This document shows positions 1 through 6,899 of a stretch of 64,000 nucleotides of DNA, piece after piece. The first letter of the stretch is position 1. Each line of letters starts with the position of its first letter. The notes under the pieces are model-generated. The model was not told where the DNA came from and ran no database searches. It saw nothing but the letters and a program-made list of their open reading frames with translations. Source of the stretch: the human T2T-CHM13v2.0 reference genome, Homo sapiens; assembly GCF_009914755.1 (NCBI RefSeq), contig NC_060927.1. One strand, 5' to 3'. A program made the translations under genes and the position numbers.

Positions 1-1571
1 AGAGAAATTTGTGAACCACTTTATATCAACACACTTGAAAACCTAAACAAAAATAGATCATTTTTTAGGTTTCATAATTAAAATAGTATAAATAATACTA
101 TCCTTTTAATTTAAAAATATGGGGACAGGGGAAGGAGAGAGAGGGAACAAAGGGGCAGGGGAGAGAAAGAAAGGTAATTCTCATGGTCTTCCTTCTTGCT
201 TACCTGTGTCCTGATTCATTTACTCCCATGCCTTGTGATTCAGACAAGGTGACTCCTACATATGCAGCCATTTTTTACCAGTTAGGTCGCAGCTTTGGAT
301 AATTTTCCTCTAACCAGCCATGAAGGGCCCTGGAACAAGAGAAGAGAGGGGACATATGGGAATCTGGATAGGCAGAGATGGAACAGCAACATGTCCAGTG
401 ACAGGGCCAATGAAGGAATCCCAAAGGTGGTGGCTGAGGGCTTTAACTGCAGCATGCCCACATGAAATGGTTTTCTGTTCGGCCTGGAGCTGGGTTCCTC
501 TTCCATCACCTTCCACTACCCTTAAACCATTGGTAATAAACGTCCATCACCCACCACACCTTAGAGTCTGTTGCTTCAATGAACTGAAAAGAAGGGATTT
601 GTCCATGCTTGAGGAAAGTTGGGGTGGAGAAAGTCTACCTAGTCACATAGACCATGCCTCAAACAATCTATTCAATAAAAGGTTAACATTAATGTTGAAA
701 ACAATCTTCATCAGTGAATAAATACTTTATCATGCCTTAAAAAGTCTTGTCTAACTTTTAAAAAGTCAGAATAGGAGGAAGAGATAGCTTGCAAAGGAAT
801 TGGAAAAGGGCTGAGAAAACAAGAGTAACACGAGGAAGGGAAGAGAATATTTCAAGAATGTAAGAATAATCAGGTAAGACAAGGCCTAGAAAGTCCCTTT
901 GGATCTTGCAACATGAAGATCAGTGGGGGATCTCAAGCAGATATTTTGTTTTCTTTAAGAAAAAGAACAAAAGGCCCATTGGAGTAGATCCAGGAGTGAG
1001 TGGAAATAAAGAACATATATTGACCACCAGGGATGGTTCTTTCAGGAATTTTAACTAGAAGAGGTTACGACTATAAGAGAGTGGTAATTAGATGAGAATA
1101 TAGTGTTGAGGAAAGTTTGTACTTACTGTTTTCCCTTTTTTTTTTTAGGTAGAAACTATATTAGTTTCCTGAGGCTGCTGTAACAAATTATCACAAATAG
1201 GTGGCTTAAAACAATAAGAATGTATTGTCTCCCTCTTCTGTAGGTCAGAAGTCTACAATCAAGGCGCTGGAAGGGCCACACTCCCTCCCAAGTCTCTTGG
1301 GGGAGAATCTGCCCATGCCTCCTTCCTAGCTTTTGGTGGCTGCTGGCAAACCTTGGTGTTACTTGGATTGTAGCCACAGCACTCCAATCTCTGCCTTTGT
1401 CTTCACATTGCCTTCTCTGTGTGTCTCTTAAAGGACAGTTGTCATTGGATTTAGAGCTCACTCATATAATGCAGGATAACTACATCTCAAAATTCTTAAT
1501 TTATAAGACCCCTTTTCCAAATAAGGTAATAGTTACAGATTCCAGTGATTTAGGGCATGGACATATCATTT

Positions 1572-1587
1572 AAGAGAGCCAACCTTC
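1572..1587 (+). repeat. 5' target-site duplication AAGAGAGCCAACCTTC
   Basis: Identical 16-mer at 3712-3727; preceded by TTT, giving an L1 endonuclease-type TT/AAGA site. Confidence 0.97.
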
Positions 1588-2412
1588 TTTTGAGAAGTGT
1601 CTGTTCATTTATGCAGCCAAAAAACACATGAAGAAATGCTCATCATCACTGGCCATCAGAGAAATGCAAATCAAAACCACTATGAGATATCATCTCACAC
1701 CAGTTAGAATGGCAATCATTAAAAAGTCAGGAAACAACAGGTGCTGGAGAGGATGCGGAGAAATAGGAACACTTTTACACTGTTGGTGGGACTGTAAACT
1801 AGTTCAACCATTGTGGAAGTCAGTGTGGCGATTCCTCAGGGATCTAGAACTAGAAATACCATTTGACCCAGCCATCCCATTACTGGGTATATACCCAAAT
1901 GAGTATAAATCATGCTGCTATAAAGACACATGCACACGTATGTTTATTGCGGCACTATTCACAATAGCAAAGACTTGGAACCAACCCAAATGTCCAACAA
2001 TGATAGACTGGATTAAGAAAATGTGGCACATATACAACATGGAATACTATGCAGCCATAAAAAATGATGAGTTCATATCCTTTGTAGGGACATGGATGAA
2101 ATTGGAAACCATCATTCTCAGTAAACTATCGCAAGAACAAAAAACCAAACACCGCATATTCTCACTCATAGGTGGGAAGTGAACAATGAGATCACATGGA
2201 CACAGGAAGGGGAATATCACACTCTGGGGACTGTGGTGGGGTCGGGGGAGGGGGGAGGGATAGCATTGGGAGATATACCTAATGCTAGATGACACATTAG
2301 TGGGTGCAGCGCACCAGCATGGCACATGTATACATATGTAACTAACCTGCACAATGTGCACATGTACCCTAAAACTTAGAGTATAATAAAAAAAAAAAAA
2401 GAAAAAAAAAAA
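1588..2412 (+). mobile_element. 5'-truncated L1HS, Ta-1 subset, with short 5' inversion
   Basis: Encodes the ORF2p C-terminus (ORF 1628-2182, CCHC knuckle [18 protein letters not shown]), followed by 3'UTR and poly(A). Diagnostics are T1900/G1903 (Ta-1 5536/5539), ACA at 2294-2296 (5930-5932) and G2379 (6015); spacings of 394 and 85 nt match L1 numbering. Confidence 0.96.
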
Positions 2413-3711
2413 GAAAATATTACCAGCAGAAAAAAAAAAAAAAAAAAAATCAAAGCAATGGCTTGCAACTCTGAGTAAAACAGGAATCCCTGCATCCATA
2501 TTGATAAACAAGTGAATAAATAAATGGTGAGAAAGGATGTTTTTCTTTGTATGTAGAATGTCAACCAATAAATGTAGAAGGCATTATGGAGTTAGGAAAT
2601 CATGTTGGTCAATCATGACAGTAATAACTGGGACAAGACTAATCAACTGATACTATATAACTGGTGAATGAGGAGCAAAATACTTATATAGTCTCAAAGT
2701 ATCTCCCCACAAATTACTTGTAAATTACAAAGAGGAAATCGTAAATTTAAAATGAAATCTGGCAGACACCAACCTAAGCGGTGAACAGAGTTAACAACAT
2801 TAATGGGACCAACTGACATTATATGCTGATTACGACGCACTGACGACACACTGCTTCTGTGATATTCCCACCCAGAATGTAAAACCCTCACCTAGTCATG
2901 CGGAACCATCACACAAATCCAAACTGAGGAACATTCGACAAAATAGCCTGTATTCTTCAAAAATGTCATGGTAATGAAAGACAAAAGAAAGTTGAGGAAT
3001 CTGCAGTATTGAGAGACACACGTTTACCAATGTAACACGATCCTGCACAAGGTAAAAGAATGGCTACAAAGGACATTATTGGGATAAATGGCAAAATTTA
3101 AATATGAATCATGGGTTAGATAACAGTATTAAATCACTGTTAAACTTCCTGATTTTGATAATAATACTTAAAAAAATACTGAATAATGCTTAAAGTAATT
3201 CTCTTCTTCTCTTAGAAGAGAATGTCCTGTTCTTAGGGAAATGCATACTGTTTTGGGCATAATGGGGTATCTGTGCAAATTATTCTCAAATGATTAAGAA
3301 AATGCAACATGAAATATAGATAAGGCAAATGGGATAAAATGTAAACACTCAGTAAATCTGGATAAAAGATATATAGGAGTTCTTTGTGATATTCCTGCAA
3401 CTTTTCTGTAAATCTGAAATTGTATTCAAAATTTTAAAGTTACCAATAAAACAAAACAAACAACCCCTGACCAAGAATCCAACAACAAGGGATGAATCAA
3501 AATTATGGTACAGTCACCCTATGGATGCCTTCAAATTACAAGATTTACAGATCAACTTTGTGAAGATATATAACAATATAGTAAAATGCTTATAACATGT
3601 ACAATGTTGAATGATAAAAGCAGGATACAAAATACTTTATGTGTATATTATAACAACTATGTAAAAGCAAGCATATAATAAAGACTGGAAGGATAAAAAA
3701 AAAAAAAAAAA
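2413..3711 (+). other. L1 3'-transduced DNA with terminal poly(A)
   Basis: Lies between the L1 poly(A) and the 3' TSD. AATAAA at 3677-3682 is followed 12 nt later by a pure A tail from 3695. The content resembles old L1MC/L1ME 3'-end fragments from another locus. Confidence 0.92.
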
Positions 3712-3727
3712 AAGAGAGCCAACCTTC
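3712..3727 (+). repeat. 3' target-site duplication AAGAGAGCCAACCTTC
   Basis: Directly follows the terminal poly(A); identical to 1572-1587. Confidence 0.97.
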
Positions 3728-3979
3728 AACCCACTACAGGGGCTAATTGACTATGTATATAAACTGATGGGGTGGTCTAGGCCTTCTCAAGCAAGACATA
3801 AAGTCCAATGTCCATGAAAGAAAAGCCTGACAGATTTAACTACAGAAAAATTAAGCATTTCTAAATGAGAATAAACACCATAAACATAAAAAGACAAGGG
3901 CAGAACGGGAGAAAATATTTGCCACATCCATCTTAAATATATCTAGTTTTAACTGCATAATCACAACTGGGTATAAAAA

Positions 3980-4150
3980 ATAGTAATAGTAGTAAAGTAG
4001 TAAATAGTCATAGTAAAAATAAAAATAGTAGTAAAGATAAAAAGTAAAAAAAGTAATAAAGTAAAATAGTAGTAAAACAATAGTAGTAGTAAATAGTAGT
4101 AAAATACTATCAAGTATTATCATAGTAGAATGCTGTAGTAAAATATAGTA
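3980..4150. repeat. Degenerate (TAG/TAAAA)n low-complexity repeat, resuming at about 4561-4665
   Basis: Repeated TAGTAGTAAAA-like units on both sides of a Tigger MITE. Confidence 0.8.
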
Positions 4151-4533: not shown

Positions 4534-5451
4534 TTTTCTATTATAATGATAGTGTGCAACAGTAGGAAAATAGTAAAAGTAGTAGTCTAGTAATATAGTA
4601 CTAAAATAGTAAAAATTATAGTCTAGTAATATAGTATAGTAATAGTAAAATAGTAGTAAAAATAATAATTTTTCTACTGTTCTTTGGGGACCCCCATTTT
4701 CGTAGCAGGAAAAACAACTCAAACCTGCTGATTCAGGGTAATTTTTTTTCTTTTTTTTTCCCCAGGTTACTCAACCTGTTGGCAGTGTATTTTTCTTCTC
4801 ACTGAGCACAGAGAGAAGTGTATGCACCGTTATGTTTTGCATTAGTGTGGCTGGCTGTGTGCCCAGTGACCAGGAGCTTTTTAAAAGAACAGAATTGTTC
4901 TTTTATCCAACTATGAATCACCAGTGCCTCGATCTGCCCATCACCCATAGAATCCTTATTAACTCATATAGATTTGAAAGCTTTTAAAAATCCTTGAGTA
5001 CTTCAGTTTCCAGGGATGTTAAATAAAGCCAGGACTGCATTTATCATATTCCCAGCTGGGCTGTGTGAGGATTAATGTTTTATCATAAGTGATCTCCTGC
5101 TCCTTTAAAAAGGCATTAATTAAGTTAAAGGTTTTATTTTTCAAGGATATGCTTATTAGTTTTTTAATAACTTGTATCTCAATGTAGTCTCTGAAATGGA
5201 AGTGATAAGGTTTTCATGCTTTCTCATAGAAAATCTGACATACAGGAGTACACAAAACTAATCTACGATTAATGTTCTTCTCTGGACATAATGTTGAGCA
5301 GTTGATCTTTCTGAGTTCTCTTGTTCTCCAGGAAGGTCCTACATGGTAGCTTGGCCTAAGGGAGGGACAGGGTGCATGCTTTGGGGAGACACCCCCTGAC
5401 CTGATGTTGTGTTTCTCTCCTCCTCCCATTTCCCCTACCTTGGTTTCCCAG

Positions 5452-5673
5452 TGAGCTGAAGCAGAAGCTGGATGAGGAAGGCAGCAAGTGCAGCATCCTC
5501 TCGAAGCACCAGCAGTTTGTGGAGCACTGCTGCATGCGCTGCTGCTCGCCCTTCACCTTCCTCGTCAACACCAAGCGCCAGTGTGGAGATTGCAAATTCA
5601 ATGTCTGCAAGAGCTGCTGCTCCTACCAGAAGCACGAAAAGGCCTGGGTCTGCTGCGTCTGCCAGCAAGCGAG
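5452..5673 (+). CDS. MYRIP: MYRIP internal coding exon (second coding exon), zinc-finger part of the Rab27-binding/Slp-homology domain
   Basis: A polypyrimidine tract and CCCAG acceptor end at 5451; the donor is GAG|GTGAGT at 5674. After 1 nt the frame reads ELKQKLDEEGSKCSILSKHQQFVEHCCMRCCSPFTFLVNTKRQCGDCKFNVCKSCCSYQKHEKAWVCCVCQQA(R), which I recognise as the human MYRIP N-terminus. Length 222 nt, phase 2 at both ends. Confidence 0.97.
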
Positions 5674-6899
5674 GTGAGTGGCTGGTGCATTCCCAGGGTC
5701 TACACTGTTGATTTAGAGAGATTCACCTGCCACTTCCTTCAGTCAGGTAGAACCAGCTATGATTGGTAGATCAACACAGAGTATTGACCAAAGTAAATAG
5801 CTTGCTGAAGAGAGATGCATGGATAAGGAAACCTGTTGATCTTTATAGGGAGGATGAGAGAGGGCCCCCCAGGAGCACCTGGGTGTGAATAGAAAGGGCT
5901 TTCTTGGGATTGAAGATGCAGCTCCTACATATGTTATTCATCTTTTTGGAATTTCTCATCTGGTCTCATCCTTTCGTTCGTTCATTGCATAAGCATGTGT
6001 TGGATTCTTAGGAATTATGCTGGGTGCAGGAAACATGATGGTGAATTAGGCCAATTATGAGTGACTCAGAGGCATAGCGGATGGTGTGATACGTAAGTGC
6101 TGGGCCTTCATATGTGGAAATACATGCCCTGACTAGTTTGTCTATTGGCTATGAGGGCACTGAGCAAGGAGAGACTGGCCCTAGGGCTTGGAGAAAGCTT
6201 CATAGAGGACAAGAAATAAAAGCAAGATTGTGAAAGACAAAAAAGAGTCAATGCTGTGAAAGGGGAGATGAAGACAACTTTGCGAGGGAAATAACAAGCA
6301 TGGCATTTCACATTCTCCCTCAGCGACCAGCAGAGCACTTCTTTGATCTGTTGAGTATTTGGAAACTGATGAGTATGATAAACCAGTGTTTGGTATTTGT
6401 CTGTGCTGATCCTAGCATCTGTAGTGTGCATTGTGATTCGTATTTGCTGCATGCTTCCAAAATGCCTGTTAATGAGTGAAGCAGAGATGAGCAGGTCCTG
6501 GGAGCACACACTCAGAAGCCCCTGCCTCCCACACCTTTTCCTTCTTTCCTCCTTTCTCCTCTCCCTGCCCTGTTTACTCGCTTGTATCCTTTAATGCATC
6601 AAGACCTAGAATTTTCCCATAGAGCTAGTTAATGGGGACAGCTGCCAAGTTTCCTTGGGGTCTCCAAGGAATCAGGCTCTGGGCTACAAAATATATATAT
6701 TCATATTCATTCCAGAGACACAAACTGAAACAAAAAGTGGTATGTTAAGCACCCAGTATCCAAGGCTGGGTGCTACGCAGGTCCTGTGCCTGACTTGGTC
6801 AGAGCAAGGAGCCCATCTGGGTCTCCACATGGCAGCTTGAAAGGGGGAGGAAAAGCCCTGCAACAACAAAGGGAAGGAGGAAACTGGGATTATAGATGA

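What the first reader, a model, noticed from the sequence alone, without database searches (positions are those of the whole stretch)
1572..3727. Very young L1HS Ta-1 insertion carrying a ~1.25-kb 3' transduction, likely polymorphic
Seen: the TSD AAGAGAGCCAACCTTC does not follow the L1 poly(A) at about 2400. It follows a second poly(A) 1.3 kb later (from 3695), which has AATAAA 12 nt upstream. Removing 1588-3727 rejoins the end of an MLT1 LTR. All four Ta-1 diagnostic positions are present. Established: Ta-1 is the youngest active human L1 subset, and read-through of the weak L1 poly(A) signal copies 3' flanking DNA. Inference: 2450-3694 is a copy of another locus and barcodes an active source L1; the 2140-bp gain is probably present or absent among haplotypes.
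Basis: partly seen in the sequence, partly recalled or inferred. Interest (0 to 1): 0.8.

Follow-up and report, generated by a model that had tools for sequence, protein, structure and literature searches.

The report
L1 insertion carrying copied chr15 DNA
A truncated human-specific L1 jumping gene in a MYRIP intron dragged along 1.2 kb copied from chromosome 15, which is an ordinary, well-understood event that records two parent elements missing from this genome.

Summary
An exact 16-nt target-site duplication (1572-1587 and 3712-3727) brackets a 2140-bp insertion.

That chr15 copy has no L1, no poly(A) and no duplication. It starts at an L1-endonuclease-like site (AT|AAAA) and ends 12-16 nt after AATAAA. 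It is therefore the parental flank, seen here as an empty allele.

- The 5' end is a twin-priming inversion. 25 nt of inverted L1 overlap the duplication by 4 nt.
- A 16-nt tag with its own A20 tract lies between the L1 tail and the chr15 DNA. This suggests two successive transductions, possibly starting at chr5:99.81 Mb.

"Very young, likely polymorphic" is not supported. There are 2 private changes in 782 nt of L1 and 7 differences in 1254 nt against chr15. That is about 0.27% per lineage, typical of an average-aged Ta element.

Presence in other humans and in apes could not be tested here. This is a textbook L1 3' transduction and a new example of a known kind.

The parts
1155..1587 (.). 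Old interspersed (LTR-like) repeat into whose last ~27 nt the L1 inserted. Its final 11 nt continue at 3728-3738.
   Evidence: More than 40 paralogs at 67-76% identity. 8 fetched paralogs align to 1155-1587 and stop at 1534-1587. 4 of 8 continue with AACCCACT[AG]CA-like ends, as at window 3728-3738.
1572..1587 (+). Target-site duplication, 5' copy (AAGAGAGCCAACCTTC). It is preceded by TT, giving a TT|AAGA target.
1584..1608 (-). Inverted L1 ORF2 fragment from twin priming. It comprises 21 inserted nt (1588-1608) plus 4 nt (CTTC) shared with the TSD end.
   Evidence: 1588-1608 matches 11 of 11 fetched L1HS copies in reverse orientation, just upstream of the sense start. Window 1584-1608 equals the reverse complement of the 25 L1 nt that end one base before the sense segment.
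1606..2387 (+). Sense L1HS 3' end (end of ORF2 plus 3' UTR), 782 nt. CAT at 1606-1608 is shared with the inverted piece.
   Evidence: 99.74% identical (2 mismatches, at 2037 and 2179) to 11 of 11 fetched L1HS copies, which are identical to one another. Ta-type ACA/G and T/G positions are present.
2388..2413 (+). First A-rich tail, the L1's own, with G at 2401 and 2413.
2414..2429 (+). 16-nt non-L1, non-chr15 tag (AAAATATTACCAGCAG), read as a short first-generation transduction.
   Evidence: It has 3 other genome occurrences, none next to an L1. The chr5:99,812,629-44 site matches over 22 nt including the flanking G and AAAAA. The chance expectation for that 22-mer is 0.0014.
2430..2449 (+). 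Second poly(A), A20. The last 4 A's are also present on chr15.
2450..3694 (+). 1245 nt copied from chr15:61.946 Mb (minus strand): the second-generation 3' transduction.
   Evidence: 99% identity over the full length, and the only such copy in the assembly. 99.44% identity with 6 mismatches and 1 gap over 1254 nt. Alignment.
3677..3682 (+). AATAAA poly(A) signal of the chr15 flank that ended the read-through transcript.
   Evidence: The chr15 homology ends 12-16 nt after it.
3695..3711 (+). Terminal pure poly(A), A17.
3712..3727 (+). Target-site duplication, 3' copy.

Best explanation
Window 1588-3711, plus one TSD copy, is one target-primed reverse transcription event of a read-through L1HS (Ta-1-type) RNA. 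Inferred chain: a full-length L1 once sat on chr15 at the AT|AAAA site, at about 61,947,525-529 of this assembly, in minus orientation. It already carried a 16-nt tag and a second poly(A) behind its own tail, acquired from an earlier source locus (possibly chr5:99,812,645). Its transcript ran past the weak L1 poly(A) signal. It was cleaved 12-16 nt after an AATAAA 1.25 kb downstream and then polyadenylated. L1 endonuclease nicked the MYRIP intron at TT|AAGA, and reverse transcription started from the new poly(A) tail. The free end of the other DNA strand (...CTTC) annealed to GAAG inside the L1 RNA and primed a second cDNA (twin priming). This produced a 5'-truncated, 5'-inverted 803-nt L1 with a 16-nt TSD. 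Shown directly: the insertion anatomy, the unique parental locus, the direction of copying and the empty chr15 site. Inferred: that an L1 ever sat at the chr15 site, the two-generation reading of the tag, and the chr5 origin. Divergence of about 0.27% per lineage suggests an age of very roughly 1-5 Myr, calibrated on recalled human-chimpanzee divergence. It is not a recent event.
For: An exact 16-nt TSD lies at the insert boundaries, with chance expectation 0.0013. The L1 part is 99.74% identical to 11 of 11 fetched L1HS copies. At least 39 other places in the genome score 1397 bits or more over the same 782 nt. Ta ACA/G is present; for its meaning I saw passages of PMC6354063. The inverted 25-mer with 4-nt and 3-nt microhomologies is consistent with twin priming. 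The transduced block has exactly one near-identical partner among the scored candidates (40 of 892 were scored; the next best hit is 69%). The chr15 copy lacks poly(A) and TSD and continues as unrelated unique DNA on both sides, so copying went from chr15 to chr3. The 5' limit of homology falls at AT|AAAA and the 3' limit 12-16 nt after AATAAA. There is no L1HS similarity in the 8.4 kb upstream on chr15. Three separate A tracts separate L1, tag and chr15 DNA. Multigenerational transductions are documented (passages of PMC13009371; PMC6425141).
Against: No source L1 is seen at chr15, or at chr5, in this assembly, so the source is inferred from an empty site. No other copy in the genome carries the tag behind an L1 or the chr15 block, so there are no siblings to confirm a lineage. 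The 16-mer tag is expected about 3 times in the genome by chance and is found 3 times elsewhere. The chr5 assignment therefore rests only on the 6 extra matching bases, 5 of which are A's. 7 differences in 1254 nt is more than typical within-human diversity (about 0.1%, recalled). This means an old event, a diverged source haplotype, or reverse-transcription errors, and these cannot be separated here.
Confidence: 0.8

Rival explanations
1. Template-switch chimera. L1 reverse transcriptase started on an unrelated polyadenylated chr15 transcript. 1245 nt in, it jumped onto the poly(A) tail of an L1 RNA that already carried the short tag. No L1 ever sat on chr15.
For: The chr15 site has no L1 in this assembly. 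The chr15 block ends at a working AATAAA site, which any transcript through the region could use. Chimeric retrocopies made by L1 template switching are described in the literature (recalled, not read here).
Against: The 5' limit of chr15 homology coincides with an endonuclease-type AT|AAAA site. For an arbitrary switch point, 4 templated A's would be expected in only about 1% of cases (my estimate from the base composition). The switch would also have to land exactly on the 3' end of a complete A20 tail. Source L1s absent from a given genome are common (PMC6425141 passages).
Confidence: 0.07
2. Single-generation transduction. The source L1 sat on chr15, but the 16-nt tag is not a copy of a grandparental flank. 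It is a filler or irregularity inside a long, impure poly(A) tail.
For: The tag is short, A-rich at its start, and embedded in a tail that also has stray G's at 2401 and 2413. Its 3 other genome occurrences equal the chance expectation of about 3. No L1 flanks any of them.
Against: A 12-nt stretch without runs of A (TATTACCAGCAG) is not what tail slippage produces. The chr5 site matches 22 nt, including the G before and the AAAAA after, against a chance expectation of 0.0014. That match also begins at a TG|AAAA or TT|GAAA endonuclease-like site.
Confidence: 0.2
3. One reading: a very recent insertion, present or absent among living humans.
For: Ta-1-type positions are present. The TSD copies are identical and the terminal A17 is pure. 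A large share of Ta elements are polymorphic (recalled). The source element is itself missing from this genome.
Against: There are 2 private substitutions in 782 nt of L1, not shared with any other L1HS copy. The only other copy with both is an older-looking L1 on chr1. There are 7 differences in 1254 nt against chr15. The pooled figure is 0.27% per lineage with a lower 95% bound of 0.13%. A 16-nt TSD and a 17-nt tail are too short to accumulate changes at this divergence, so they say little.
Confidence: 0.3

Closest known systems
L1 3' transduction (read-through of the weak L1 poly(A) signal; described by Moran, Goodier, Pickeral and colleagues, recalled; general description seen in the abstracts of PMC9311842 and PMC4862182, listing)
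   Same: L1 3' end, its poly(A), unique non-L1 DNA and a second poly(A) after a downstream AATAAA all lie inside one TSD. A unique parental locus exists elsewhere.
   Different: The source element is not present at the parental locus in this assembly. The transduced block is longer than most (recalled).
Multigenerational (serial) transduction families, e.g. the family in PMC6425141 (passages) and the cascade in PMC13009371 (passage)
   Same: Two different non-L1 segments, each closed by its own poly(A), are stacked behind one L1.
   Different: The first segment here is only 16 nt, so its origin (chr5 candidate) is uncertain. No other family member was found in this genome.
Twin-priming 5' inversion of L1 insertions (Ostertag and Kazazian 2001, recalled)
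   Same: The inverted 5' piece comes from the L1 region immediately upstream of the sense piece. There are microhomologies at both junctions and a tiny loss (1-5 nt) at the inversion point.
   Different: The inverted piece is unusually short (21-25 nt).
Chimeric retrocopies formed by L1 RT template switching (Buzdin and colleagues, recalled)
   Same: Two unrelated transcripts' sequences are joined within one TSD-flanked, poly(A)-ended insert.
   Different: The junction here is a complete poly(A) tail next to an endonuclease-type site on the parental locus, which fits a former L1 insertion there better.

Membership tests
L1 target-primed reverse transcription insertion | Target-site duplication flanking the insert | tested here: met
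   Exact 16-nt repeat at 1572-1587 and 3712-3727. 0.0013 expected by chance.
L1 target-primed reverse transcription insertion | 3' terminal poly(A) directly before the TSD, and an endonuclease-type target (TT|AAAA-like; consensus recalled) | tested here: met
   A17 at 3695-3711. The target reads TT|AAGA.
L1HS Ta subset | ACA and G in the 3' UTR where older L1s have GAG and A (PMC6354063 passages; ACA at 5930-5932) | tested here: met
   ACA at 2294-2296 and G at 2379. 99.74% identical to 11 of 11 fetched L1HS copies.
Ta-1 subset | T and G at L1 positions 5536 and 5539 (values recalled from memory; not found in any paper read here) | tested here: met
   T1900 and G1903. Their distances to ACA (394 nt) and to the G (479 nt) fit the recalled numbering. 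The definition itself rests on recall.
L1 3' transduction | Non-L1 DNA between the L1 poly(A) and the terminal poly(A), matching a unique locus elsewhere that ends at a poly(A) signal | tested here: met
   2446-3698 is 99.44% identical to chr15:61,946,276-61,947,529. AATAAA lies 12-16 nt before the end of homology.
L1 3' transduction | A source L1 immediately upstream of the parental segment | tested here: inconclusive
   There is no L1 within 8.4 kb upstream on chr15 in this haploid assembly. The boundary is an AT|AAAA site, as expected of an empty allele. Other genomes could not be searched.
Twin-priming inversion | Inverted 5' segment adjacent in L1 coordinates to the sense segment, with junction microhomology | tested here: met
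   25-nt inverted match, 4 nt shared with the TSD, 3 nt (CAT) shared with the sense piece.
Polymorphic (presence/absence) L1 insertion | Empty allele in some human haplotypes, and absence in apes | not testable with these tools
   Only the window's own assembly is held. No paper text mentions the locus. The supplements tried were unreadable or silent.

The most novel reading that the evidence does not exclude
The insert is the only surviving record in this genome of a three-locus L1 lineage (chr5:99.81 Mb to chr15:61.95 Mb to MYRIP intron). Both full-length source elements are absent from CHM13. They are either still segregating as unrecognised active L1s in some humans, traceable by the 16-nt tag and the 1.25-kb barcode, or were lost from the species after leaving this one offspring.
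Probability: 0.35. Interest if true: 0.4.

Novelty: new member of a known kind. Interest (0 to 1): 0.3.

Why it matters
The mechanism is textbook, so the value is local.

- The 1.25-kb block and the 16-nt tag are sequence barcodes. They allow a simple search of pangenome assemblies for one or two source L1s that CHM13 lacks.
- The case shows that a first-pass reading from sequence alone can correctly predict a transduction partner.
- The insert lies in the sense orientation in a MYRIP intron, about 1.7 kb upstream of the coding exon at 5452-5673 (hub annotation). It brings in a poly(A) site that has demonstrably been used once. If the insert is polymorphic, an effect on MYRIP transcripts would be worth a look. 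Nothing here shows such an effect.

Tried and rejected
- Lineage relatives: I looked for L1 copies sharing the two private L1 changes. 2037A occurs at 129 places and 2179G at 14 places including this one. Both occur together at only one other place, an older-looking L1 on chr1:69.27 Mb. No L1HS relative was identified.
- Tag origin: the 3 other genomic 16-mers have no adjacent L1. Only chr5 is kept, as a weak candidate.
- Literature: full-text searches found nothing on this locus. They covered MYRIP + LINE-1 + transduction (3 irrelevant papers), source element + 15q22 (none), and the TSD, tag and chr15 boundary strings (only 2 irrelevant bacterial papers).
- Other transduction families: the family of PMC6425141 and the cascade of PMC13009371 involve other loci.
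- Supplements: PMC9311842 too large. PMC7058536 table not read, timed out. PMC6191304 and PMC4862182 hold no row for this site (my hg19/hg38 coordinate guesses were rough). These unseen supplements may list the insertion or a chr15 source.
- Papers not held: Szak 2003 and Ebert 2021.
- Ta-1 positions: a literature check of 5536/5539 found nothing.
- Rejected explanations: copying from chr3 to chr15, because chr15 lacks poly(A) and TSD. Assembly artefact, because of the intact TSD, poly(A) and inversion anatomy.

Full report
**Anatomy**

The region was read directly and scanned for repeats. The 16-mer AAGAGAGCCAACCTTC occurs exactly twice, at 1572-1587 and 3712-3727. About 0.0013 such pairs are expected by chance in 2.5 kb. 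The 2140 bp that this pair brackets (1588-3727, counting one TSD copy) contain, in order:

- 21 nt of inverted L1 (1588-1608)
- 782 nt of sense L1 3' end (1606-2387, sharing CAT with the inverted piece)
- an A-rich tail with G at 2401 and 2413 (2388-2413)
- a 16-nt tag, AAAATATTACCAGCAG (2414-2429)
- A20 (2430-2449)
- 1245 nt of non-L1 DNA (2450-3694) ending with AATAAA (3677-3682) plus 12 nt
- A17 (3695-3711)
- the second TSD copy

The target reads TT|AAGA.

**The L1 part**

A search of the window's own assembly with 1588-2387 returned 40 scored places out of 4056 first-look candidates. All covered query positions 19-800 (one 19-799) at rounded 100% identity. I fetched 11 of these. All 11 are identical to one another over the 782 nt and differ from the window at only two positions, 2037 (A versus C) and 2179 (G versus T). 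That is 99.74% identity.

ACA/G as the Ta signature, with ACA at 5930-5932, is stated in passages of PMC6354063. The T/G pair as the Ta-1 signature at 5536/5539 is my recollection only, and one search found no paper for it. The spacings of 394 and 479 nt do fit that numbering.

**The 5' end**

The first 21 nt match the same 11 copies in reverse orientation, just upstream of the sense start. Extending into the TSD, window 1584-1608 equals the reverse complement of the 25 L1 nt that end one base before the sense segment.

So the 3' end of the upstream target strand (...CTTC) could pair with GAAG in the L1 RNA and prime the inverted cDNA. The two cDNAs then joined at a CAT microhomology, with a loss of 1-5 nt. 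This fits the recalled signature of twin priming.

**The transduced block**

Searching the assembly with 2451-3694 gave the window itself and one other full-length place, chr15:61,946,280-61,947,524 minus strand, at 99%. The next hit was 69% over part of the query. These weaker hits reflect ancient repeats inside the block. 40 of 892 candidates were scored.

BLAST against the fetched chr15 stretch gives 99.44% identity, with 6 mismatches and 1 gap over 1254 nt, for window 2446-3698. The alignment and the chr15 sequence show four things:

- Homology begins at GAT|AAAATCAAAGC, an AT|AAAA site.
- Homology ends at AATAAAGACTGGAAGGATAAAA|CC.
- chr15 has no poly(A) and no TSD.
- The flanks on both sides are unrelated to the window.

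Copying therefore went from chr15 to chr3 through a polyadenylated RNA. No L1HS similarity exists in the 8.4 kb upstream of the block on chr15. In this haploid genome the parental locus is an empty site.

**The tag**

The L1 tail, the tag and the chr15 DNA are separated by three distinct A tracts. The simplest account is that the chr15 source L1 was itself an offspring carrying a 16-nt transduction.

The 16-mer occurs at three other places, on chr2, chr5 and chr21. About 3 occurrences are expected by chance, and none lies next to an L1. Only chr5:99,812,629-644 (minus strand) also matches the preceding G and the following AAAAA, 22 nt in all. The chance expectation for that is 0.0014. The match also starts at a TG|AAAA or TT|GAAA site. 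Because five of the six extra bases are A's next to a poly(A), I treat chr5 as a candidate grandparent, not as established. Multigenerational transductions are documented (PMC6425141 passages; PMC13009371 passage).

**Flanks**

The upstream flank belongs to an old interspersed repeat with more than 40 paralogs at 67-76% identity. The downstream flank beyond the TSD has almost no paralogs, only 2 weak hits. Eight fetched paralogs align up to window 1534-1587 and not beyond. Four of the eight continue with AACCCACTACA-like ends, matching window 3728-3738. The name MLT1 could not be checked.

**Age and polymorphism**

- The two L1 changes are private. 2037A occurs at 129 places and 2179G at 14 places in the genome, including this one. 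They occur together only here and in one older-looking L1 on chr1.
- 2 changes in 782 nt is 0.26% (95% CI 0.03-0.92%).
- 7 differences in 1254 nt is 0.56% pairwise.
- Pooled, this is 0.27% per lineage (CI 0.13-0.52%).
- Against a recalled human-lineage divergence from chimpanzee of about 0.6% over 6-7 Myr, this points to very roughly 1-5 Myr.

There are caveats. Some L1 changes may have been inherited from the source. The chr15 comparison also includes divergence between the source haplotype and CHM13's empty haplotype, and any reverse-transcriptase errors. One difference is a CpG kept on chr3 but TpG on chr15, so it probably arose on the chr15 side.

The identical TSDs and the pure A17 tract are too short to be informative at this divergence. 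The element looks like an average-aged Ta insertion. Whether it still segregates is open, and I put it at about 0.3.

**Rivals**

A template-switch chimera needs no chr15 L1. It does not explain why homology starts at an endonuclease-type site or why the junction is a complete A20 tail. I give it 0.07.

A single-generation reading treats the tag as a filler in an impure tail. It cannot be excluded, and I give it 0.2. It changes only the grandparent part of the story.

**What could not be done**

No other human or ape genome is held, so the empty chr3 allele, a filled chr15 allele and ape orthologues were not examined. Paper searches found no mention of the locus in main texts. Several relevant supplements were unreadable or not held. 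The insertion or its source may therefore already be catalogued.

**Verdict**

The transduction reading is confirmed and extended with a twin-priming inversion, a probable two-step transduction and an empty source site. The claim of youth is not supported, and polymorphism is untested. This is a clean new example of a well-known process.

Noticed in passing
L020 (G000 chr15:95,421,624-95,422,405, minus) and L019 (chrX:11,295,032-11,295,813, plus): Two L1HS copies share the same A19 tail plus about 25 nt of flank (TAACAATAAAATGAGATAAAATCTA). On chrX the flank continues as unique DNA. On chr15 it is followed by a pure poly(A) of about 57 nt. This looks like a short 3' transduction from the chrX element into chr15, with a very long and hence probably recent tail.
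   Followed up: partly
window 3977-4106 and 4563-4661: Two degenerate AGT/TAGTAAAA-type tandem arrays (periods 8-36, 62-84% matches) lie just downstream of the insertion, between it and the MYRIP exon at 5452-5673.
   Followed up: no
L026 (G000 chr10:105,686,347-105,690,128): An L1HS 3' end is followed about 475 nt downstream (starts 1257 nt apart) by a second, older L1 3' end in the same orientation (85.9% identity over 780 nt). It is either a nested insertion or two adjacent insertions.
   Followed up: no
G000 chr7:149,612,627-149,612,778: The 30-nt L1 ORF2 pattern with the 2037A variant occurs three times at 61-nt spacing. This suggests a tandemly repeated L1 fragment.
   Followed up: no
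L011 about 1750-1800 (chr15, roughly 230 nt upstream of the empty source site, transcript orientation): An Alu-like 3' end with an A-rich tail lies next to the inferred L1 source site.
   Followed up: no
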